NCBI GenBank assembly: GCA_964016885.1
Contig: OZ024755.1
Span: 21,328,001-21,392,000 of the forward strand
Direction of reading: 5' to 3'
Origin: Eledone cirrhosa
Lineage: Eukaryota
DNA: 64,000 bases
Shown here: positions 19,173 through 47,639 of the stretch, in pieces
Position numbering within the stretch: the first letter of the stretch is position 1
Layout of the letters: every line of letters starts with the position of its first letter
Program-made: the position numbers and the translations under genes
Notes under the pieces: model-generated
Told to the model about the DNA's origin: nothing
The model's input: only the letters and a program-made list of their open reading frames with translations
Database searches by the model: none

Positions 19173-20755
19173 TATATAAAATATTAATAAAGTAACAAAA
19201 ATATTTTTTTCATTATTAAAAAATTTTTTATATATATTAATTTAAAATATATATTTTATTTTTCAGTTCTTTGGCATTACATTTTCATTTCAAAATCCAA
19301 TACAAATCAACTGATAGGTTTTCAAAGAAACAAGCCTGTGATGAAAATGTTCAAATGAAGATAATTTGTGAGTTTATGTCATCCAATTTAACACTTTTGT
19401 TACCAAATTACCTGAAATTGCCCCTGGTTCTCTACAATACAAAATATTTTGCTGTAAAGTGTTTCTATTTATCTCAAAACCCCCAGCTGTAATTTTAAGC
19501 TAGCATGTTTAAGCTATGCTAAAAAGGACCCAGCTTAGTACTAGGATAGTTAGTTATATTATTAAATTTCTCTATATTCTTGATTCTTTTGAAAATTATA
19601 GACCATATATTTCATTAGAAATATAAGAAAAGGGTTAAATATAATACATAAATATACTTAACAGTAATTTTTATCAAATTAAGAAGAGTATATCACAAAA
19701 TGACAATACATTTCAAAGGTATTGATTATTGGAGATAATCTTTTATTTTTATTAATTCCAGTCAATACAATTGAAGTCTAAATAATGTGTGTAAAAAATG
19801 GTCCAGAAACTGCTTAATTATAAATGTATCTGAGTTAATTGTTTCTTTGACATGATTCTTTGTGTGTGTGTGTGTGTATCTTAGCAGCTATTGTATATGT
19901 TTCTTCATGTAAGGTGCTGGAGTTAAGTCATGAAGAAAATATAATACGTACACACACACTCACTGACACCAACAGTGAACTTATATATGATAGTTTGTGA
20001 ACTATTCAAATGTTATAGAGAAAGAGATCCCAAATTAAGTTCATTTGACAATGTTTTGGACCTGCTCCTCAATATTCCAGACATTCAAACCTCTGACTGT
20101 GATGATATAAGTTCACAAAAAGTTAAGGAATCTCTGTATTTACCATATTCAAAACAGTTGGCACCAGGAAGGGCATCCAGCTGTAAAACATTGCTTCAAA
20201 AAAGCCCTCATGATGAATACGAAGCCTTTTATGGGATCTGCAAGACTAACTCCAGTTTTAATAAAGAAAAACTGTCTTAAAATGCTTTCTGCTACTGTTG
20301 TTAGCCCTGAATCTATTAACACACAAACTATAAGTTTCTAAGTTATATTGTTAGCTCAACACTTGCATTGTTCTGATATACACACTAAAAGCTGTAAAAT
20401 TAAAATAACATTTTTTTTAATATAAAAACCTATATTATTATCATCTTATCTCTTAACATCCTGGAATGAATTAGCAGAAACTATCTAAAACACGTTTGTT
20501 AATTCAAATGTTTGTAGTATCTTTACTACTGAACAGATCATTGTGAAAATTTGTATATTTGAGTAAAAGCTTTAATTTTTAATGTGATACAGTCAGAGTA
20601 TTGCCCTGTATATTTTTAAAGAATATCTTGCCAATGTGGTTTCCTGTGGTATAGAACGTTAAGAGTTAAAAGTAAAAAAAAAAACCTATATCATTATCAT
20701 AGAGAATAAGTAGATTAGGAGCCACCAGCTTGTAAGTCTAACAAAAGCTTAGACT

Positions 20756-21156
20756 TCAAAGTTGTGACAAAACTTTATTAACAAAACTGAACATGGGATG
20801 ACTAGCACATGTCTTCAACCAAACTTCAACATTTGGTGGAACACGTTTAGCAAGCTTGTAACTTTGGATTCCTGACCAACAAACAATATCAGCTAAAGAT
20901 AAATTATGACCGACCAACCATTTACTCTTTGCTAATGTGGAGTCAAGGTCTTTTATCATATTATTTTTTTGTTCAGCATCACCATTCCAAAGTAATAAAC
21001 TGGCTTTATCTATCCAACCATCAATCTGGGTTGACTGTACAGGATCTTTATCATAGGATGGGTTCATCAACCTAGAAAAGTACCGAGCAATGTTCACTTC
21101 TCCATAGATAAAGGTTTGTTTCTCAGGATTAATCATCAGTGAACATCCTTGATTAA
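20756..21156 (-). CDS. AIMP2: AIMP2 exon 4 (last; GST-like C-terminal domain)
   Basis: Acceptor TTTTTACTTTCAG|TT, phase 1. IYGEVNIARYFSRL...IDGWID...LAKSKWLVGHNLSLADIVCWS matches AIMP2 IEGEGNIARFL...WLAGNELTVADVVLWS. TGA stop at 20758-20756. Confidence 0.93.
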
Positions 21157-21220
21157 CTGAAAGTAAAAATAACAGAATTAAGAAACACAATTACAACTTT
21201 AATAATAGATTAATTTTTAA

Positions 21221-21442
21221 TTAACCCTTTCATGACCATATTTCTAATGAAATACACTCTATTTCAATTAGTTAATAAAGAATTTTTAAGTATTTACGAA
21301 AATTATCAATTATTTCATTACTAAGATAGTAACTTAATGTAAGGTTCATATATAAAATTATGGAAGATTTTAATTTAAAATGGGTGGCTTTATTTCATAG
21401 AACCAGAGCCTGTTTTGGCTGGGCTGGTAATTAAAGGGTTAA
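21221..21442. mobile_element. TTAA-flanked MITE (piggyBac-like ends)
   Basis: TTAA-CCCTTT...AAAGGG-TTAA. Related copies at about 19388-19638, 22510-22691, 52045, 58034-58226, 59305-59554 and 60318-60672. Confidence 0.75.
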
Positions 21443-21999
21443 AATAAGTCTATTAATTAATATAATGAATAAGCCTACACAGATATAGAGCACTAAAACA
21501 AAGGAGGAGAGAAGACCTGCAGATATGCAGTACTAAAGAAGGGACAAGAAAGTGGGAGAGAAGACCTGCAGTCAATCATACACCACCACAAGGGGGCGTT
21601 GGAGCATACCTCTAATAATTTTTGAGGCAAGCCAACACACTTGCAACATTGCAGTGGGTGATAGCGAGACTAAGACACTGGAATAACCAAGTACCCTTGC
21701 GAACAAAACCATACACCTTGGTAAAGTGATCCACCAACGAAAAGAACTTCGTTGTCAGTGGTCAAGTACCAAGGTATGGAGTGAACTTTGTGAAAGAGAA
21801 CCAGAGGCCATGTGGTGTGGTGTGGAGTGAACTTTGTGGAAAAGAAATTGAGATCATGTAGTCTGGAGTGAACTTTGTGGAAGAAAACCTGAGACTATGT
21901 GGTATCATGTGGTGCGAAGTGAACTTCTTCACTGCAAAAAAAATGTTCTGTAAAAAAAAGGTTAAAATATTGAAAAACTGATACTAATGGTTTTCTTAC

Positions 22000-22243
22000 C
22001 ATTTTTGTAAATAATGGTCAGCAGCAGATCATTTGAGAGGCGACCATCTTCAGGTTTCTTAGAAGGTGTGGCTAAGTCAAATAAATTGCATAGTTTTACT
22101 GAAGGCTTCTTCTTAACTGAAGAATGAACATATATGGTGGGTTTCACTTTGAGACTTCGAGAGAGTTCTTGATAGAGAATTAATAAAGATAGTGGAACTG
22201 AATTGGGGTCAACACCAATTACTATGTCTTGAAAGTTAACATT
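22000..22243 (-). CDS. AIMP2: AIMP2 exon 3
   Basis: Acceptor TTTATTCCACAG|AAT (phase 0), donor G|GTAAGA (phase 1). DIVIGVDPNSVPLSLLIL...VHSSVK...LTIIYKN matches human DIVINANPASPPLSLLVL...HSSVK...FTLIWKN. Confidence 0.93.
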
Positions 22244-22675
22244 CTGTGGAATAAAGTAAAATAATAGAAATAAATAAATAGAAGTAAAAGAAATCACAAG
22301 TAATTGTAAAGTTTGTTATATTGGAGTTGTAAAACTTGTTATGGTATGGTTTGTAGTGTGTATCTAGTTTAGAATACACCATATCGCTGAATGTAGTAAG
22401 AAGGGACATGGAGAAGGGATGACCACGAGGAAAGGCTGACATGGAGCCCATCTCCTCTCCAGGTCTGAATACAGAAAGAAAGGAAGTGAGAAAGAGATAT
22501 AAAGGAAGAATCAACCCGTGCTAGAAGGATTTAGTAATGTAACTAGCTTTCTTATTAAGTAAGTGTTTAGAATATAACTTAAGAAAAGGTTCTTAGAAAA
22601 AATTATTATGGAAGGTTTCAATTTAAAAATGAACAATTTTTCATCATAGAACCTGGGTCAGATTTAGAGAGGTTG

Positions 22676-23035
22676 GTATGAAAGGGGTTAAATAACCAAA
22701 TTAAAAATGTAGTTATTTGTAGAAAAGGGAGGGCTTCATGTCATGAAAAAGGGGTTAAATAACTAAATTAAAGGTGCACTTGTAGAAAAGGACTTCATAT
22801 CATGAAAAAGGGGTTAAAAACCAAATTAAAGATACGATTGTAGAAAAGGTTCTCGTGTCATGAAAAGGAGTTAAATAATCAAATTAAAGATGCACTTACT
22901 TGTAGAAAAGGACCTCATGTCATGAAAAAGGAGTTAGTTAAATAACCAAATTAAAGATACACTTACTTGTAGAAAAGGAGCTATCATGAAAAAGGAGGTC
23001 AAATAACCAAATTAAAGATGCACTTACTTGTAGAG
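22676..23035. repeat. About 60-bp tandem repeat, about 6 copies, overlapping the AIMP2 exon-2 donor
   Basis: Unit CATGAAAAAGGGGTTAAATAACCAAATTAAAGATGCACTTACTTGTAGAAAAGG. Confidence 0.88.
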
Positions 23036-23177
23036 AAGGGGCTGATGTTTGACTGTCTTGACATTCACTGCCACATGACATTTTATCCAATTCATCCTGT
23101 ATTCTTTTGAGCCGAGCAAATATAGCAGCTTGTTGGCTCTCAAGTTCAGCAATTGGGTCATTTGGTGATTGCTTTGT
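23028..23177 (-). CDS. AIMP2: AIMP2 exon 2 (coiled-coil/leucine zipper), 150 nt, phase 0-0
   Basis: Acceptor TTTCTTCTCCAG|ACA, donor CAA|GTAAGT. IAELESQQAAIFARLKRIQDELDKM matches human [25 protein letters not shown]. Confidence 0.92.
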
Positions 23178-25773: not shown

Positions 25774-26301
25774 CTGAATATTTTCATCAACAATTCTCAG
25801 GAAATTTTTGTGACTCTTCTCACACGGACTGTTGTTTAATTTAGAAGATTTTTCAGAAGAAACACTGCTGGACATATGCTGTACACAAGAGTTCAGTTCT
25901 TGCTTATTTATATGGTCAGAGGTTACCGTTTCTTGCTGAGAATTCAAACTAGAACATTTATCTGTTTCTAATAAAGAAAATTTCATTTCATCTGTTACAT
26001 CCTCTGAAGGTATAGTTGTATTTTCTTTTTGTTGATTAGAAGACGAAACTAAAACATAGTCCCCAACTAAAGCAGTCTCAATGTTCCCATTGTTTTCACA
26101 ACACCCCATTATTTTCATTCCATCTTGATTATCAACTGGAGAATTGGTAAAACCAGTTGAAGAATTTTTCATATTTTTTGGTTGTTCTAAAGAGGTTTTA
26201 CCAGAAGACATGTCAGACTTTGATGATTTTTTCTTCTTAGTTCCACATGCAACATATCGGTGAATAAATTGTTCTGTAGCTTTAGATATGCTATTTCCCA
26301 T
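25774..26301 (-). CDS. Putative alternative first coding exon of AIMP2 (176 aa, N-myristoylation motif)
   Basis: ACAATGG Kozak context, 528 nt open and non-repetitive, donor CAG|GTAAAA in phase 0, compatible with the exon-2 acceptor. The ORF closes 6 codons after the donor. Confidence 0.65.
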
Positions 26302-26709
26302 TGTAGTAGTCAGCAGCCAACTAACACTAACACCAGAAAACAACTAACTTTCTAAGACTGCCAGAGAAGAGTAGAGGTGTGTGTAACCAAAATAGACTGG
26401 CAGAATAGTGAGTCAGTAATGCAGGACTTTATAAAGGCATCACTTGGGTGGATTCAATCTATTAATTCTTATAAAAACAGTCCTAGCTTTACCATCTTTC
26501 AAATGGTTTGCACCATTTCAGTCTTATTAACAAACAACTGAAGGAGTTTTTGAGGTAAGGTAAAGAAAGGGGGTTATTAGTTGAAAAAACAAAACAAAAT
26601 CCTCATCTTTTCAAACAAGGACACTTAACTGATATAATAATTTAGACACAACTCTTGGTATATATTTAAAAAAGTAAGACTTCCTAGATATTTAAAGATA
26701 CTCCCTACA

Positions 26710-33213: not shown

Positions 33214-33360
33214 ATCGGCTTCTGTATGACATGGGTTAATTGGTTTTATATAATACATATCTTCATTCGACAGATTTTGAAGTTTAAAAGAATGATAAGG
33301 TTTTACATAGTACATTTCACCGCTGGCGATTTGAGGCGGAAAAGAATTATCAGAAGACAT
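33214..33360 (-). CDS. AIMP2: AIMP2 exon 1 (49 codons; not in the ORF track)
   Basis: MSSDNSFPPQIASGEMYYVKPYHSFKLQNLSNEDMYYIKPINPCHTEAD|gtgagt. MYYVKPYH matches human MYQVKPYH (LysRS-binding motif). Donor is phase 0. The start could instead be the ATG at 33315. Confidence 0.9.
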
Positions 33361-35199
33361 GCTGTCGATCTGACAACACTTGATGGTGTTAGAAAGTTGT
33401 TGGCTGAATTACGCACGAAACAAATAGTGGTTCTTATTTCGTCACTGAAAATCTGGCCTGGTGCCAAATTTTACAAACAACCATGAAACAGACTCTTAAC
33501 AATAACTAAAAAGAAAAGAAAAAAAACGAATCGATTATGTCCCTTTCAAGATATTTAAAGCCCTTAATTTTTTTTTAAGGTTCTTTGATTAATATTTTAA
33601 GTTATCCTCTTAGATATTTTTTATTTAATTTTTTTAATGTATTCTATTTCAAGGGGAATCATAAAGCTTTGTTAAAAAGAATATAATGACAAATAATTCT
33701 AAAAAAAACACACATCAAATTACAACTACAAAACCTAATCTAGAGTTTGTCGCGAAATCCAATCAATAGGTATAAAATGTTATAGTAATTTGATTTAAGT
33801 AAGATTTAATGATCACCAATGATGCAATAATTAATATATTACAAACAAAGACAATGTCATTGTTCAATAATTATCTCCCTTGTGTTACATGGCTTCTTTG
33901 AAATTAACGAAACAATATAATAATGGGCAGATAATTCAATGCTTTCTATTGTAATTTTGTTTCGTTTTTTCTTTTATATTACACAAATATAAATGCTTAA
34001 TAATAAAATATTTACATAAAATACTTTATTACTTCTTTTCTTTTAATAAAAGTGCTATATTTTTTATCATGAGTTTAGGAATAATTATGAGTTGAGGAAT
34101 AATTATTTCATTTTCACTTTAACAATTATACTACGCACATACATATACAAAATGTCTGATGAAAAGAAATACGAAATGTTGTATATAAACGAGAATTGTA
34201 TATCGACAATACTTTAGTGAATAATTTACAATACCTCGTTTTAAATAAATTGAATTTAGTTTTTTTCAAAAATGATTTGATACTCTTTGTTTAGTATAAG
34301 AAACATTACCAACATTGCTGATATAAAATATTAGTATTGAATCAAACAAATATGTTCATCTTTGAATTGATATTATTAAATTCTAATCAATGTCTTTTTT
34401 TTTTTTTATATAATACTTTGTTTAATTTATAAGCATGAATTAGTATGCTTTTATATTATATTTGATCGAATACTTCGGTATGTCTTAAAAAATGAAAGTA
34501 CCTTAACAAACGAGACACTTGTGTAAAACGTAGTATATATATATGTATATATTCCTGTTAACGGATTTTTGTAATTACCAAGCTAGTTTTCAAGAATTGC
34601 TGATATATTACTTTGACCAGTTATTTAGAGTTATCCCTCTTATTCGAGAAATTCTATTTATAGATTTTTGTTTACCTAAAATAACAATATTTCATGTGAT
34701 ATTTGTTTAGAAGGAAATAGGTATAGCAAAGGAATCAACATGTAAACTTTCATAACATTCTTTTATCTGGGTGGGTTTCGTTTTTGTTTTTTTAAAATAA
34801 AAATTATATTGGGTATCTATTATAATGGTCATTTATTTATATTGTGGTGGTAGAATTTTTATAAATGATAGAGCGTCTGAGTGGACAGTGAAACATTCAG
34901 TAAGATGCTGTAGAGGTTTGACTCATACACTGTTCACTTTCCTAAAATTTGTACATTACTCTACTATACGTGCACCTTTGGAGAATTTTAGTGCACCTTA
35001 GCACTGTACACAACAATTTTCATTATTATTATTATTATTATTTATATTATATTTGATCAAACGAGGAAGCCTCTTCGTGGTCACACAAGTTGTTAGAAAT
35101 TGTTGTGAAATATCCCTCAATTTATATCATACAGTCTTAAAAGAGGAAACGACAGATTATATATATATATAGATAGATAAAAGAGAGAGAAGAAAAGGA

Positions 35200-38002
35200 G
35201 AAGTATGTTGTGTACAAAAAGTTAGATGGAGGGATGCCTCTGCGAGATTAATTATGGGCAAGCAACTTAGATATAAACTCTATTGGGTAGGAAATTACAA
35301 TGGGGTAGGAGGTGTAGGTGTCTTACTGGCTGAGAAATGGATTGATAAGGTGATAGAGTTAGTTAGAGTAAGTGATAAGATCACATCTACCCATGCTCTG
35401 CAGGCAGGGCTGGGTAAAGAACAAAAGGACAGGTTCTATGAAGAACTTTTACAGACAACTTCAGGTGTTGACGAAAGAGACTGCATCCTGGCAGGCAACT
35501 TAAATGTGGAACAATACCAGGATGGATTCAGCAGAGTTATGGTTATGGTTCTAGGATTGAAGAGGGGCTGAAACTCTTGGAATTCTGTAACGCAAATGAA
35601 CTAACCATCTGCAACACGAATTTCAGGAAACCAGCCAGCCACCTGGTTTCATATGAATCAGGTGAACACACAAGACAAACAGACTAATAAATACTAAGGC
35701 CTTCTCTGGGGAAGAATGCACTGCCCAGAAGAAGTTAGTTATTAGTGACATCAAAATAAACGAAAGACAACAAGACTTGCAGGAAAATATAGAGATGGAG
35801 AGTGTGGAAGCTAAAGGACCTCTCGGTTAAATATAAGTTTAGAAAGGCCCTACAGGATGCACTTGATGAGGATGAGCTAGATACATATAACGTAAAAGAC
35901 AACTGGAAATTCTTACGTGACAACCTTTTGCAAACTACTGATGAGACTTGTGGCTGGAGAAAAGCAGCAGACAGACAGAGAGTGGCCTGGTGGTGGAACA
36001 GCACAGTAGATACAGCTATTAAAGCCAAGAGACAAGCAAGAAAAGATTAGAAAAATGAGGGTAGCAGAGTCCAGTACCAAGTAGCTAAGAAAGAAGCTAG
36101 GTGACAGGTATACACAGCTCGGAGAGAGGCCGAAGAAAGTAAATTTACCAATATCTTGAGACGTGATAATCAGAGACGTGAAATGTTCCATATTGCAAGG
36201 CAGGATGTTAGTGTGAATCAAGATGTTGTTGGGGAAAAATGTGTTAGAAATGATGATGGTGCACTTAGCACCACTGATACTCAAAAGAAAGATGCCTGGA
36301 AATGTTACTATGAGAGATTGATGAAGGTAGAGAATGAATGGAAGGAAGGGAAATTAACCCCAACTTACCCAAAGTAAAGACCAGCTATTGAAGTTGATAG
36401 TTTTGGGGTCAAAGATGCAATCAAGGAGATGAAGAATAGTAAAGCTGTGAGACCATCAGAAATAGTTGCTGAGATGCTAAAGGCATCAGGAGAGGTAGGA
36501 CTCAAACTAGTAACCCATATAGTAAGTCAAGTAATACATGATGGAGCCATACCCAATGACTGGCGTACAATTATAAATTGCTACTAGGGCAAAGGTGATG
36601 CTCTAGAAAGGAGCAAGTATAGAGGACTAAAACTAATGGACCAAGATATGAGTGACAGAAAGAGTATAGTGCAGCTAATTAGGGAAAGAGTAAAAATTGT
36701 GCGATGCAGTTTGGTTTCATGCATGGGAAAAGTAATACAGAGACCCTCTTCTTAGTGAGGCAACTAAAAGAGAAGTTCCTAGCCAAAAATAAGCCTCTAT
36801 ATTTAGCTTTTGTTGATCTAGAGAAGGCCTTTGACAGAATACCTCAATCTGTTATCTTAAGGAAATTAAGTGTAGATGTAAGAGTGGCTTGTAAGAGCAC
36901 TGCAAACTATGCACAGAGTAGTTGTCAGTAAAGTGAGAGTAGAAAATAATAAGGTGCAGGAAGGAGTTCATCAAGGTTCAGTTCTTAGCCCACTGTTCAT
37001 CACAGTTCTTCAGGTCATGATAGAGGAGTTTAAAATGGGCTGCCCATGTGAACTTCTCTAAGCAGAGAAGTATAGTTATAGTATATAACTATATAGCTGA
37101 AACCAAAAAAGAACTAGAAAATAAATTCCAATTATGGAAACTGAATTTGGAATCAAAAGGTCTGAGAGTAAACTTAGCCAAAACTAAAGTGCTAATGAAT
37201 AGAAGAAAAGATAGGACCCAGATTCCCTCGGGGAAGTGGCCATGCTCAATATGCAGAGAAAGAATAAACTCCATACAATGTACAAAATGCAAATCTTGGG
37301 TACACAAAAGATGTGGTGGTATAATGAATAGACTAAAAGGGAGAGCTTTACATTTAGAAGATGCACAGGAGAAATCGAGAGGAAGAGTACTAATGATATA
37401 AATCTTTTCCTGTCACAGGAAGGATCCATAGATGTGGTTCATAGCTTCTGCTATCTAGGTGACCTAATTAGTAGTGGAGGAGGGTGTGCCAAGGGTATAA
37501 TAGCTGTAATAAGGATAGGATTGAAGAAGTTTAGAGAACTACTCCCACTGCTGACGAGAGAAAGGTTTCTCCTTACGTACAAAAGGAAGGCTGTATGACG
37601 CCTGCGTGTGGTGCGCGATGCTGCATCATAGTGAAACAGGGGCTGTGACTGCAAATGCGTAGACTGAAGCAACCATGTTTCATTGGATGTGCAATGTAAA
37701 TGTGAGAGAAAGGCAGAGCCTGGATGAGCTGAGGGAGAAACTAGGTTTAAGGGGAATCTGAGATGGTGTGCAGGATATGTGATACCGATGGGTGAAGAAA
37801 TGCCAGGAAATCCCAGTGAAAGGAAGCCACAGTAGAGGTAGACCAAGAAAGACTTGGGCAGAGATTGTGAGAGCTGATCTCAAATCACTAAGATTGAAAG
37901 AGATGATGATGGAACATGAAAAGAGGAGAGATGCTGTGCTGAGAAGGACTCATCCAACCCATGCAAGCATGGAAAAATGGATGTAAAATTGATGATGATG
38001 AT
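35200..38002 (+). mobile_element. Decayed, nearly full-length RTE-clade LINE (APE endonuclease + RT)
   Basis: VRWR..ARL..YKLYWVG..GVGVLL (APE), QFGF...LYLAFVDLEKAFD (RT), KWPCSIC...IQCTKCKSWVHKRC, RGRPRKTW, (GAT)n tail. Many stops and frameshifts. Confidence 0.92.
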
Positions 38003-40560: not shown

Positions 40561-42886
40561 CATCATCATCACCGTTTTATGTCCGTTCTTCCACGCTAGC
40601 ATGGGTTAGACGGGTTGTCCTGTTGTGGGCAGTGTCTGGTCGGCTGACCATGCCTTGCTCATACAGGAACTGATTTGGCTTGATTTCTACAGCTGGATGC
40701 CCTTCCTAACACCAACCTCATTTACAGTGAGTGCTGGGTGCTTTTTCGTGGCGCCTACACGTCCACTTTACAGTGTGGGCTGGGTGCTTTTTTGCCGTGG
40801 CACCTCCACGACCACCTTGCGGTGGGGGGTGTGGGGGCATATTGTCTATATGCTTCAGCTTGTACCCATGGGAGGTCGGGTACTCTGTATTACTGTGTGA
40901 CGCCAGAAGTCACGGTCGTGTAATTGGGTAAGGTCGGCTTTTATTACCTCATCCCAGGTCTTCTTGGGTCTCCCCACTCCGCAGTTTCCATCGACTTCTA
41001 GTGCTCTGCACCTTTTTATGCAGCTGTCATCCTTCATACGCATCACATGTCCATACCAACGCATCCGCCTCTCCTGCACACAGCATTTGATTCCTCTTAT
41101 GCTAAGTCTCTCTCTCAATTCATTTATGCTTTGCTATTCGCGTATATTACTATTACACATCCATCTGAGCATGCAGACTTCGTTTCTTTCTAATCTACGC
41201 AAGTCTTCCACATTCAGTGCCCAGGTCTCACTACCATGTAACATTGCTGTTCATATACATGCATCATACAGTCTGCCTTTCATTTTGAGGGAAAAGCCTT
41301 TTGCAGCTAGCAGTGGCAGTAGCTCCCTGAACTTCTTCCATCCCGTTCTTACCCTAGTTATTGTACTTTCTGAACACCCACCTCCGCTGTTAATTCGGTC
41401 ACCTAGGTAGCAGAAGCTGTCTACTGTTTCTACAGAGCCCTCCCATAAATTGGTGGTACTTGTTTCCTGTGGCTGTTTGCTGCTTGCTGTCCCAGCACAG
41501 CTGCTACATGTGAAGCCTACATTCTTAATTAAGCTTCCTGAGATCCTGCTACATCTCTTGTATACCCATTGTTTGCATTTGGGACAGAGAATGGCATTCC
41601 TACCTACACCTTTCCTACATACTGAGCAAGGCCATTTCCCTGAGGGGATCTGGGTTCTGTTTTCTCGTCTACTTACAAGGACCTTAGTTTTTGTCAGGTT
41701 GACTTTGAGACTCTTTCTTTCTAGTCCCTGCTTCCAAGTTTGGAATTTCTTCTCTAGTTCTACCATAGATTCAGCTATAAGTGCGAGGTCATCTGCATAC
41801 AGGAGTTCCGATGGGCATCCGGTCTTAAACTCCTCCGTTATTGCCTGCAGGACTATGATGAAGAGGAGAGGGCTAAGAACAGAACCCTGGTGGACACCGA
41901 CCTGTACGCTAAATTCCTCGCTATACTCATTGCTAATCCTAACTTTGCTGACTGATCCCCTATACATGGCTTGTACAGCTTTCACAAGCCATTCATCTAC
42001 TCCTAGTTTTCTAAGAGCCCACCATTGCATCTCATCTAGTTTCACCCGGTCCCCAATCAACTGTGCTATAACTCTTTCTGTTACTTTCATGACCTGGTCC
42101 ATCAGCTTTATACCTCTATAGTTTCCTCTATCTACTGCATCACCTTTACCTTTGTAGCAGTTGACAATGATGCTACTGCACCAATCCTTTGGTATGACAC
42201 CTTCTAGTATTACCTGGTTAACAAAACGTGTGGTTATAGTGTGACCTACCGACCCAGATGCCTTCAGCATCTCAGCAGCTATACCTGATGGACCGGTTGC
42301 CTTCCCTATCTTCATATCTTTGATTGCCTTACTTACTACGCTGCTGCTGACTTGTAATGCTGGCCCCTCTATAGGATCTACTTGGGGTAGGGTCTCTTCT
42401 TCCCATGCATTCTCCTCATTTAGTAATCTATCATAATGGCTCTTCTATGCATCTTTCTTCTCAGCACTTGTGAAGGCAAGCTCACCTTTGTCATTCCGGA
42501 TACACTTCTCTCCAATGACATCACAATTCTCTCTGACACACTGCCTCGCAATCTTGAACACCTCCTGTTTCTGGTCCTCACGTTGCAAAACATGCTGAAT
42601 TTTCTATCCTCTGCTTCCCTCCAAGCTAAGTATACTTGACGCCTAGCTTCCCTCCTGGTCTCTATGTAATGTACCCTGCTTCCCCCGTTCTTGCATTCTT
42701 TCCATGCCTGTCTCTTGGCCTTAACTGGCTCATCTACCTCATTGTTCTACCACCAAGTCACTCTCCTCCTGCCTGTGGTGTTACTCCAGCCACAGATCTC
42801 ATCCGTCGCCTCAAGTAAGTTATTTTTTAGGAATTCCCAGTGCACTTCTACATATCTGTTCTTCTGTACTGTCGTAGGCGTTGAGT
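40557..42886 (-). mobile_element. 5'-truncated RTE LINE, relatively young, with an internal RT deletion
   Basis: ORF 41251-42315 has KATGPSG, NYRGIKL, GVHQGSVLSPLLF and LLYADD. ORF 40855-41118 has RMRWYGHVMRM...GRPKKTW. (GAT)n tail. Confidence 0.95.
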
Positions 42887-45466: not shown

Positions 45467-46527
45467 ATGTCAACAAAATCGAGGCGTGCGAGAGGTCGTC
45501 CGCCAAAAACCCCATTGTCGGGTCGGACCAATTTTCTGAAAAGACCCAAAGCTTACTATCATGGTACCTTTGGAGATGGCCACAATTTTGACGGTGGAAT
45601 AAATAGTTCCACGGGAACATATGTTGGTGGTAGCTCTCATTTAACACCTCATAGTCACCATCATCACACGGGTAGAGCTGGCTCTACGGCCAGCGGCATT
45701 AGTATGAGCAGTGGTAGGGGTGCCCGTTTTAGGGAGGCCGCTCAGAAAAGCCGAAGCTACATCCTACAGATGCTCGAAGATGACGATGATGAACATAAAC
45801 ATTCAGAGGCAGATCCTGACAAATCTAGTGACTTAACAGATATGGATAATGTAGATGAAGACCATTGTTCGGATGATACCTACGAAGAGTCTGAATCAGT
45901 ATACAGCGAAGAGAGTTACAGTACTGTGGGTTCTGTGAGCAAGAGAAGATACCATTCACGGCGGCCCAAAACTCCGGATTTAGATGAAACCCGTGAAATT
46001 CCTCCTTTAAACCTGCCTGCACCCGCTACTGATCTTATGTTACCCATTGAATATTTAATGTCAGCATTAAGCGTCTACGAAGTACTTAGACATTTTCGGT
46101 CAATTTTACGATTATCTCCTTTTTTATTCGAAGATTTTTGCTCTGCTTTAAATAGTGATGAACAGTGTCTACTGCTGGCAGAGATCCATATAACACTGCT
46201 GAAAGCCCTTCAAAGGGAAGAGGAAGCAAATAATACCACATTCGGTGCCCACGATTTGAAAGACAGTATCAACATAGCTTTGTACTTTTTAGATGGAATG
46301 ACTTGGACAGAACTGGTCCGAGCCTATTTAGACAGTGACCGAAACCAAGAATTTAAAGATACTCTTGAGATTTTAGAGAAGACTGATTTCCCTTTTGTTG
46401 GCATCGAAGACAGGTTGAAAGTACTCCAGACTTTAACTGATTTGTTCCTTGCGACAAATTCTGTGAGAGAAGAGATTATGAACGAAGGTAACATCCAGTA
46501 TGATGACCATTGTCGTTCGTGCCATAA
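45467..46527 (+). CDS. BPTF: BPTF/NURF301 first coding exon (AT-hook, acidic region, DDT, WHIM1, start of PHD1)
   Basis: RGRPPK AT-hook; ALSVYEVLRHF..LRLSPF.FEDFC.AL...LAEIH..LLKAL (DDT); FGAHDLKDSIN; RLKVLQ; EGNIQYDDHCRSCHK matches human EGVIQYDDHCRVCHK. Donor AA|GTAAGT, phase 2. Confidence 0.96.
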
Positions 46528-47639
46528 GTAAGTATTTTGATTTTCTTTAACTTTAGTAAGTTTCATTGAGTTATATCTTAAAATGGTCAAATATAATCTA
46601 TTTATTTATCGACAGATATAATTCTTATTCGAAAGGAGTTATTGAATTCCTTGAAAATCACCCAAAAATTCATTTAATCGTGTTTATAATTTTGATTGAA
46701 ATTTTTTTAAAATAATTATTTTGGGGGAAAACTATATTTCCATTTTCAATGTAACAAAATATTATTGATATTATTATTATTATTATTAAATTTAAGTAAA
46801 TAACTACACATATCAAAGGCAGATAACTAGCAAATCATAATATATAAAAATAAAAAAAAATGTTTTTGTAAATAAATGAACGTGCATATTAGAGAAAGGT
46901 TTATTATCTTCCGGGAACCTTTCACCTATGCATCTCTTATGGTTTTATAATATAAAATCTCCAGTTAATAAGAATTGGAAGTATTCTTCTTCAAATTTAA
47001 CAACCACTAGTTTCTCGTCCTCCTTTTTGAAATTTGAATTATTTTTTGTCTGAATGTTTTTGAATTTGTGATTTCATGATAGATAATTTTAACAAAAGGC
47101 ATTTAATTTTTTTTATTAAATCAAGAATTAATTAATAAGAAAAAAAGTGGGGAGGGATATGACCTAACATTTATTGAAAACTCTTTTAATATATATCAAA
47201 GACATAGAAAGATATCTTCAATATATTTTACATAGCTTAGCTTTTGTTATCACCAAGGAAATAAATAGTGAGCTAATCATGATGTTACTAAACTTACTTG
47301 ATTCAAATCTTATTTAGGGTGGGATCCACTAGTGTTATTTTAATTATATTTTTAAAATATATGTGTTATAAAAGCTACATATTATTATTTAAAACAGGCA
47401 GCATACAAAGCTCAGTTGTAAATTAGTAACCATAAAGAACCTATGTAAAACCCCCAGTGTTATAATTCAGTAAAATTATGACCCATCTTACAATAGACAA
47501 CATTAGTTATGATGTCTTGTTAAGAGTATTCATAAAACAAAGATACTTCTAAAATTAGTTGGGATTTATTTTTGGGGGGAATGATATTCAAAATAAACAA
47601 TTGAAAAAGAAAAGAAAGATTCAAAGATTGACTGTGTCT

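What the first reader, a model, noticed from the sequence alone, without database searches (positions are those of the whole stretch)
25774..26301. Cryptic alternative first exon predicting a membrane-anchored, LysRS-blind AIMP2 isoform
Seen: AIMP2 intron 1 contains a same-strand, non-repetitive 176-codon ORF with an ideal start (ACA-ATG-G). It ends at CAG|GTAAAA in phase 0, the same phase as the exon-2 acceptor, and the frame closes 6 codons after that donor. It begins MGNSISK, then has YVACGTKKKKSSK and a Ser/Asn/Glu-rich, probably disordered linker. An in-frame TAG lies 15 codons upstream, which argues for a start exon rather than a cassette. Known: MGxxxSK is a strong N-myristoylation consensus, and a nearby Cys plus polybasic run is the classic second membrane signal. 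The MYxVKPYH motif in canonical exon 1 is what tethers LysRS to the multisynthetase complex. Inference: a 440-aa isoform would keep the zipper and GST scaffold but swap LysRS binding for a lipid anchor, giving a membrane-tethered synthetase subcomplex. I know of no described equivalent.
Basis: partly seen in the sequence, partly recalled or inferred. Interest (0 to 1): 0.85.

Follow-up and report, generated by a model that had tools for sequence, protein, structure and literature searches.

The report
Lipid-anchor AIMP2 isoform in molluscs
An octopus gene for AIMP2, the scaffold of the tRNA-synthetase complex, uses a second first exon, matched by cuttlefish and mussel protein records, that replaces the motifs expected to bind lysyl-tRNA synthetase with a predicted lipid anchor, which would likely tie part of this normally soluble complex to membranes.

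Summary
The 176-codon frame (26301-25774, minus strand) is a real alternative first exon of AIMP2. In a spliced RNA run it is one contig ending at the predicted donor. Matching isoforms exist as automatic records in Octopus vulgaris, O. sinensis and three Mytilus assemblies, and as unnamed full-length cuttlefish-type proteins. All 12 Met-Gly-starting AIMP2 proteins retrieved begin MGN and lack the LysRS-type motif. Cephalopods also keep Lys7, Cys19 and a basic run, while the linker drifts. Best reading: an N-myristoylated, probably palmitoylated AIMP2 that keeps the zipper and GST core. Acylation, location and complex assembly are untested, and the mussel signal is weaker. It works like sperm hexokinase HK1S. 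A membrane-anchored synthetase complex is already known in Plasmodium (tRip), so 'no equivalent' overstates it. My paper searches found no animal case, and the scan's earlier notes hold no AIMP2 finding. New variant of a known kind; interest 0.68.

The parts
25774..26381 (-). Alternative first exon (1b) of AIMP2, the part covered by an RNA contig; the true start may lie further upstream
   Evidence: Run X4 contig 13, 638 nt, covers 25774-26381 at record letters 31-638, depth 18.5 against 2.4 for listed intronic contigs
25774..26301 (-). Coding part of exon 1b, 176 codons, ending at the phase-0 donor CAG|GT
   Evidence: orthologous N-termini in P0006, P0008, P0012, P0017, P0024, P0041
26218..26301 (-). 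Predicted acylation signal, codons 1-28: Gly2-Asn3, Ser6-Lys7, a candidate amphipathic stretch 5-19, Cys19, basic run K22-K25 and K28
   Evidence: M1 G2 N3 K7 C19 K24 invariant in 6 of 6 cephalopod rows; recalled PS00008 pattern met; hydrophobic moment 0.47, reached by 2.75% of 2000 shuffles. The modification itself is untested.
25774..26217 (-). Polar, fast-evolving linker, probably disordered
   Evidence: 58% S/N/E/Q/K/T and 2.7% aromatic in residues 31-176; octopus-cuttlefish identity 9 of 68 and 18 of 90 against 141 of 262 in the core
26302..26381 (-). Covered 5' UTR of exon 1b; holds the in-frame TAG (26346-26344) and no ATG
33214..33427 (-). Canonical exon 1 (ATG 33360, 49 codons) with two LysRS-type motifs, MYYVKPYH at 33315 and MYYIKPIN at 33258; phase-0 donor GAT|GTGAGT
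   Evidence: Contig 14, 244 nt, depth 27.1; weak Pfam AIMP2_LysRS_bd hit on residues 16-24, E 0.033, below the curated cut-off
23028..23177 (-). Exon 2, shared, 150 nt; encodes the heptad-like helix taken to be the zipper
   Evidence: Contig 10 stops flush at 23177; joint 22243-23028 with CT..AC ends in X4 and not in DNA run X1. Zipper identity rests on position and pattern; no Pfam hit.
22000..22243 (-). Exon 3, shared, start of the thioredoxin-like/GST core
   Evidence: Joints 21156-22000 and 22243-23028; orthologue P0001 matches human AIMP2 chains 5a34_B and 6iy6_C at E about 1e-28
20499..21156 (-). Exon 4, shared; GST C-terminal part, stop at 20758-20756, and covered 3' UTR
   Evidence: 86% identical to O. 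vulgaris AIMP2; one match in the own genome

Best explanation
This AIMP2 gene has a second first exon inside intron 1 that is transcribed and spliced at its phase-0 donor, very likely to exon 2, giving a predicted 440-aa protein that lacks the two LysRS-type motifs and is likely N-myristoylated and membrane-bound. Shown: the exon, its donor use, the open frame, the motif swap and its conservation in other molluscs. Inferred: a second promoter near or upstream of 26381; Met removal and myristoylation of Gly2; a second membrane signal from Cys19 palmitoylation plus the basic run; a flexible linker of about 150 residues; and a retained zipper and GST core that still bind AIMP1/ArgRS/GlnRS, AspRS and GluProRS. 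The cell would then choose by promoter between a soluble LysRS-holding scaffold and a membrane-held scaffold that does not itself hold LysRS.
For:: X4 is spliced (two CT..AC joints absent from DNA run X1). Contig 10 ends at exon 2's first base, and the exon 1 and exon 1b contigs each carry exactly 30 unaligned letters at their donors; a k=31 model with both first exons joined to exon 2 gives 244, 638, 1052 (observed 244, 638, 1053 with one inserted letter); an unspliced model gives 908, 1266 and a cassette model 60, 214, 630, 1052; in 7 long/short pairs from 4 clusters (Octopus, Sepia cluster, an unnamed decapodiform-like cluster, Mytilus) the MGN form and the canonical form share an identical C-terminal 256-283 residues and differ only before the zipper. 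P0012, P0017 and P0024 (475, 472, 451 aa) lie whole on contigs of at most 2125, 1664 and 1788 nt, which fits spliced mRNA; 12 of 45 proteins held start with MG; 12 of 12 have Asn3, 0 of 12 have an MY/MF motif before the zipper, 9 of 12 meet the recalled PS00008 pattern; octopus-cuttlefish identity is 10 of 27 at the N-terminus against 9 of 68 and 18 of 90 in the linker. The human AIMP2 N-terminus binds LysRS, the adjacent helix binds the ArgRS-GlnRS-AIMP1 subcomplex, and a form lacking the first 33 residues (and exon 2) still assembles with AspRS and the GluProRS GST domain (PMC6760448, passages). Myristate needs a second signal, usually a Cys or a basic cluster (PMC4736023, passages).
Against: No acylation, localisation, translation or binding data exist for this protein in my calls. 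The 30 junction letters were not printed and the joint table hid 200 rows, so the 1b-exon 2 join in this genome is deduced from contig geometry in one sample of one study, whose run type is not on record. The three Mytilus N-termini have Asp6, fail PS00008, have net charge -2 over residues 2-30 and no amphipathic signal; beyond MGNTL and a nearby Cys they do not align with the cephalopod exon. Cys19 is further from Gly2 than Cys5 in HK1S. No MG form was listed for Argonauta (1 member) or O. bimaculoides (1 record). LysRS binding by the mollusc canonical exon is assumed from motif likeness; the Pfam hit is below cut-off and a PDB search with the exon found 0 matches.
Confidence: 0.58

Rival explanations
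1. The long form is acylated and membrane-bound but works outside the synthetase complex, as a free AIMP2 signalling adaptor.
For: AIMP2 and other components have functions after release from the complex (PMC6760448 and PMC8053116, passages). An exon-2-less variant of AIMP2 acts outside the complex (PMC4394549, passages).
Against: The zipper exon and GST core are kept letter for letter in the long form, and N-terminally cut AIMP2 still assembles in vitro.
Confidence: 0.2
2. The exon is real but Gly2 is not myristoylated; the N-terminus is acetylated or acts as a Gly N-degron, and the basic run serves as a nuclear import or RNA-binding signal. The isoform would then simply be a LysRS-free AIMP2.
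For: Unmodified N-terminal Gly is a degron (PMC13082882, passages). The Mytilus form fails the consensus. K/R runs resemble nuclear localisation signals (recalled).
Against: MGN is kept in 12 of 12 MG-starting proteins while the linker drifts. Ser6/Lys7 or Gly6/Lys7 and Cys19 are kept in cephalopods. HK1S is myristoylated without Ser6/Thr6.
Confidence: 0.15
3. The exon is a cassette downstream of canonical exon 1, leaky intronic transcription, or belongs to another gene.
For: TAG|TTG at 26344 could be a phase-0 acceptor. One Mytilus record (P0035) has a third, unrelated N-terminus, so automatic annotation can add doubtful first exons. The junction letters were not shown.
Against: Contig lengths reject the cassette and unspliced models. 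Depth is 18.5 against 2.4 for listed intronic contigs. Full-length MGN-AIMP2 proteins occur on single short contigs in two unnamed clusters.
Confidence: 0.04
4. The cephalopod and mussel MGN exons arose independently; the swap evolved twice rather than once in an early mollusc. This can hold together with the best explanation.
For: Lengths differ (27 residues against 176-219), Cys is at 8 against 19, and only MGN plus one linker residue is invariant.
Against: MGNTL is shared between the Sepia-cluster and Mytilus forms, and both join just before the same zipper.
Confidence: 0.3

Closest known systems
Unremarked database isoforms: O. sinensis XP_029635515.1, O. vulgaris CAI9720823.1, Mytilus XP_076073561.1, XP_071130161.1, XP_063444520.1
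   Same: Same gene, MGN start, junction just before the zipper; the octopus records align with this exon (54% and 53%).
   Different: They carry only the automatic AIMP2 name. My searches found no paper that remarks on the N-terminus.
Sperm hexokinase HK1S (PMC4736023; abstract and passages read)
   Same: An alternative promoter gives a new N-terminus. Somatic HK1 docks through its N-terminal porin-binding domain; HK1S has a Gly2/Cys dual-acylation signal and goes to the plasma membrane.
   Different: HK1S is an enzyme, shown by experiment, sperm-specific, with Cys5. Here the protein is a scaffold, the Cys is at 19 (8 in mussels), and acylation and tissue are untested.
Plasmodium tRip and its Q- and M-complexes (PMC9136112; abstract and outline read)
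   Same: A GST-like AIMP scaffold that holds synthetases at a membrane.
   Different: tRip is a parasite surface membrane protein with an extracellular tRNA-binding module and three synthetase partners. It is not AIMP2 and not an alternative isoform of a soluble scaffold.
Human AIMP2-DX2 and AIMP2 lacking the first 33 residues (PMC4394549, PMC6760448; passages read)
   Same: AIMP2 forms that drop one binding module; the form cut at residue 34 lacks the LysRS-binding segment and still binds AspRS and GluProRS.
   Different: DX2 loses exon 2 (zipper) and keeps exon 1. Here exon 1 is replaced and a targeting signal is gained.
c-Abl 1a/1b (PMC4228975; passages read)
   Same: Two N-terminal variants, only 1b myristoylated.
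   Different: The Abl myristate binds a pocket in the kinase for autoinhibition, a reminder that myristate need not mean membrane binding.

Membership tests
AIMP2 (p38/JTV-1) gene | Thioredoxin-like plus GST C-terminal core homologous to human AIMP2 | tested here: met
   Exon 4 is 86% identical to O. vulgaris AIMP2; P0001 and P0006 hit PF18569 and PF00043 above cut-off; P0001 matches human AIMP2 chains at E about 1e-28
AIMP2 (p38/JTV-1) gene | N-terminal LysRS-binding motifs, canonical form | tested here: inconclusive
   Two MY-x-V/I-K-P motifs in exon 1; PF16780 hit at E 0.033, below cut-off; binding not tested; human motif wording recalled
AIMP2 (p38/JTV-1) gene | N-terminal LysRS-binding motifs, exon 1b form | tested here: not met
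   No MY/MF motif in exon 1b or before the zipper in 12 of 12 MG-starting proteins; no PF16780 hit in P0006 or P0012
AIMP2 (p38/JTV-1) gene | Leucine zipper after the N-terminal segment | tested here: inconclusive
   Conserved heptad-like helix in exon 2, not aligned to the human zipper; no Pfam hit
Alternative first exon | Transcribed, own donor used, joined to a shared downstream exon | tested here: met
   (geometry); full-length orthologous proteins on single short contigs
Alternative first exon | Own promoter and capped 5' end | not testable with these tools
   Contigs cannot show a start; contig 13 ends at 26381, not at an AG
N-myristoylated, dually acylated proteins | Gly2 in an N-myristoyltransferase-compatible context | tested here: met
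   Recalled PS00008 pattern met by the window protein and 9 of 12 retrieved MG proteins; not met by the 3 Mytilus ones
N-myristoylated, dually acylated proteins | Second signal: nearby Cys or basic cluster | tested here: met
   Cys19 and net +4 to +6 over residues 19-30 in 4 cephalopod rows; Mytilus has Cys8 but net -2
N-myristoylated, dually acylated proteins | Covalent myristate/palmitate and Gly2-dependent membrane location | not testable with these tools
   Needs labelling, mass spectrometry and G2A/C19S localisation
Membrane-anchored multi-synthetase complex (tRip-like) | Scaffold co-purifies synthetases from a membrane | not testable with these tools
   No binding data; binding surfaces are retained in sequence
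Transposon-derived ORF | Multi-copy sequence or mobile-element domain | tested here: not met
   One match in G000; no such Pfam domain

The most novel reading that the evidence does not exclude
Molluscs have kept, since before bivalves and cephalopods split, a promoter switch that turns the central scaffold of the animal multi-synthetase complex into a lipid-anchored, LysRS-free form. It would build a second, membrane-bound synthetase complex for local tRNA charging or signalling, and would free LysRS where it is expressed. This would be the first membrane-anchored form of the animal complex that my searches could find.
Probability: 0.4. Interest if true: 0.85.

Novelty: new variant of a known kind. 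Interest (0 to 1): 0.68.

Why it matters
Whether the multi-synthetase complex mainly channels charged tRNA or mainly stores synthetases for other jobs is an open question (PMC8053116, listing and passages). A natural AIMP2 that changes the complex's place and drops its direct LysRS tether is a ready test. If charging or translation moves to the membrane with it, that favours channelling. If the main effect is free LysRS, that favours the depot view. The AIMP2 N-terminal peptide also halves the Km of human LysRS for tRNA (bioRxiv 10.1101/2024.12.07.627298, passages), so the swap could tune lysylation. In the one RNA sample the exon is not a trace form (contig depth 18.5 against 27.1), though contig depth is a poor measure of expression. 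The finding also prompts a look for overlooked MG first exons in AIMP2 genes outside molluscs.

Tried and rejected
No RNA holder was listed on record; X4 was judged RNA from its splice joints; exon 1b alone against longer proteins gave 0 of 383 candidates, a miss of the word index, since such proteins turned up as cluster members; the profile search gave only 6 proteins among 8000 scored candidates, so gastropods, Nautilus, annelids and other phyla were not sampled; their absence means nothing; exon 1b against 1.84 billion representatives gave 1 hit (P0041, an octopod-like read-through of the exon); metagenome scan, 177 pattern matches, none confirmed. AlphaFold model of P0006 had mean pLDDT 30.5; not used; the Atlas returned AIMP2 clusters but no N-terminal sequences; canonical exon 1 found no PDB chain; a bacterial promoter scan, not relevant here. 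dN/dS was not computed, because only proteins of the relatives were available. No complex prediction was sent: no whole octopus LysRS or AIMP1 was at hand, and a negative result would not count. Paper searches for a prior description: AIMP2+myristoylation (7 papers), AIMP2+isoform+alternative first exon (1), multi-synthetase complex+AIMP2+LysRS+N-terminal+membrane (10), AIMP2+myristoylated (10), AIMP2+mollus (4). I saw listings and abstract starts, and none described such an isoform. I opened four of those papers as passages: PMC4394549, PMC8053116, PMC4228975 and PMC9808598, whose 'AIMp2' is a shell extract. PMC2940729 and PMC4735555 did not hold the position-3 rule. Utsumi 2004 is not held, so the point that Asn3, like Gln3, permits myristoylation without Ser6 is recalled. 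No supplements were read; myristoylome tables in them could bear on novelty, and most subscription journals are not searched. Rejected: transposon, chance ORF, cassette exon as the main form, nesting in the neighbouring BPTF-like gene (opposite strand, divergent).

Full report
Observation. The host gene is AIMP2. Exon 4 is 86% identical to Octopus vulgaris AIMP2, and that protein matches human AIMP2 chains at E about 1e-28. Canonical exon 1 ends at 33214 and exons 2-4 lie at 23177-23028, 22243-22000 and 21156-20756. The two products are 313 and 440 aa with no internal stop. The frame is the longest ATG-led one in the 10,036-nt intron, and 3 of 500 simulated introns reached its length. It has one match in the own genome and no real Pfam hit.

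The exon is used. Four runs of one study hold the stretch, none on record as RNA; I laid two of the four. X4 skips introns 2 and 3 at CT..AC ends and X1 does not, so X4 is spliced RNA. In X4, contig 10 (exons 2-4) ends flush at 23177. Contig 14 covers 33214-33427 and contig 13 covers 25774-26381, each with exactly 30 unaligned letters at its donor. That is the overlap expected where two upstream exons enter one downstream exon in a graph of 31-letter words. A simulation with both first exons joined to exon 2 gives 244, 638 and 1052; the run shows 244, 638 and 1053, the last with one inserted letter. An unspliced model gives 908 and 1266, and a cassette model 60, 214, 630 and 1052. The limits: the 30 letters were not printed, 200 joint rows were hidden, and this is one sample. 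Contig 13 crosses the upstream TAG unbroken and has no ATG in its 80-nt leader. This, not the TAG, is the evidence for a first exon, since TAG|TTG could be an acceptor. Depths are 18.5 (exon 1b), 27.1 (exon 1), 69.2 (shared) and 2.4 (listed intronic contigs); they are a rough guide only.

It is conserved. Cluster look-ups returned long siblings of canonical AIMP2: O. vulgaris CAI9720823.1 (447 aa), O. sinensis XP_029635515.1 (446 aa), and unnamed P0012 and P0017 (475, 472 aa) in the Sepia pharaonis cluster. A second unnamed, decapodiform-like cluster has P0024 (451 aa), and three Mytilus RefSeq isoforms (XP_076073561.1, XP_071130161.1, XP_063444520.1) begin MGNTLDFC. In 7 such pairs the two forms are identical over the last 256-283 residues and differ only before the zipper (an eighth pair, P0035, has an unrelated N-terminus). 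The unnamed long proteins lie whole on contigs of at most 1.7-2.1 kb, which fits spliced mRNA. Of 45 proteins held, 12 start with MG; all 12 have Asn3 and none has an MY/MF motif before the zipper. These 12 include near-duplicates and stand for about five lineages. In six cephalopod rows M1, G2, N3, K7, C19 and K24 are invariant. Octopus and cuttlefish share 10 of 27 N-terminal residues but 9 of 68 and 18 of 90 in the linker. No MG form was listed for Argonauta or O. bimaculoides, each a single record. Other phyla were not sampled.

How it likely works. In humans the AIMP2 N-terminus binds the LysRS dimer, the next helix binds the ArgRS-GlnRS-AIMP1 subcomplex, and the GST domain binds AspRS and GluProRS (PMC6760448, passages; PMC4394549, passages). 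Canonical exon 1 here has two motifs of the LysRS-binding type (weak PF16780 hit), and exon 1b has none. Exon 1b instead fits the MGXXXS/T myristoylation consensus and has both usual second signals, a Cys and a basic cluster (PMC4736023, passages). Residues 5-19 are modestly amphipathic in four cephalopod rows, with 1-8% of shuffles reaching the value. I infer a myristoylated, probably palmitoylated AIMP2 on a long flexible linker that still assembles the rest of the complex. None of this was tested. Because AIMP2 is present twice per human complex, mixed complexes could still hold LysRS. The mussel N-terminus is 27 residues, has Asp6 and net charge -2, and fails the recalled PS00008 pattern. 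HK1S shows that Ser6 is not required when position 3 is Gln; that Asn3 does the same is recalled, as the source paper is not held. Whether mussel and cephalopod exons share one origin is open. The AlphaFold model was too poor to use (pLDDT 30.5).

Comparison. It works like sperm hexokinase HK1S, where an alternative promoter yields a Gly2/Cys acylation signal and a new location (PMC4736023, abstract and passages), and like c-Abl 1b (PMC4228975, passages). A membrane-anchored synthetase complex exists in Plasmodium through tRip (PMC9136112, abstract), which is a surface membrane protein and not AIMP2. AIMP2-DX2 drops the zipper, not exon 1. So the claim of no equivalent is too strong for the idea. 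For AIMP2 itself, five searches showed no paper describing such an isoform. I saw mostly listings and read no supplements, and most subscription journals are outside the library. The scan's own notes hold no AIMP2 finding; they hold one parallel case for PTPN11, where the lipid-anchor start was not conserved (e1-7497275, unchecked here). Here it is conserved.

Verdict. My estimates: the exon is real and joins exon 2, about 0.95; the cephalopod form is myristoylated, about 0.8; the full chain through a membrane-held subcomplex, 0.58; the boldest reading, one ancient mollusc-wide switch that builds a second membrane complex, 0.4. The isoform already sits unremarked in public annotations and the mechanism type is known, so it is a new variant of a known kind. 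A specialist would still not expect a conserved lipid-anchor form of the central scaffold, and it makes the channelling-versus-depot question testable. Interest 0.68.

Noticed in passing
window 45470-46528 (+): Large exon with a DDT domain (E 8.7e-19) and WHIM1, BPTF-like by my recall; it points away from AIMP2, about 12 kb from exon 1.
   Followed up: partly
window 41251-42444 (-), probably also about 35200-37600 (+): Reverse-transcriptase (RVT_1, E 5e-16) LINE-like remnant; the second region looks similar in the ORF list but was not scanned.
   Followed up: partly
window 10790-10863 (+): A single tRNA-Ala(TGC) gene, about 10 kb downstream of AIMP2; no link suspected.
   Followed up: no
P0035 (XP_063444518.1, Mytilus): A third AIMP2 N-terminus, hydrophobic then basic, joined at the same point; it may be an intron read-through or another targeting variant.
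   Followed up: no
P0019 and P0041: Read-through products of the orthologous exon keep Gln then Val at the exon end, as in the window, which fits a conserved phase-0 CAG|GT donor.
   Followed up: partly
ESM Atlas rows: An arthropod cluster of 64 proteins joins the AIMP2 thioredoxin-like domain to a tRNA_edit domain (672 aa), and a phenylalanine-tRNA ligase cluster of 85 carries PF18569 in 96% of members. A 520-member chordate AIMP2 cluster does not list the LysRS-binding domain among its top three families. N-termini could not be seen.
   Followed up: no
window 22681-23039: A 58-67-nt tandem array starts at the exon 2 donor and repeats the donor-like word AAGTAAGT; the RNA contig uses the first copy.
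   Followed up: no
P0012 vs P0013; P0024 vs P0022: The long form is on about as many public contigs as the short one (11 vs 9; 4 vs 5), a weak hint that each dominates in different samples.
   Followed up: no
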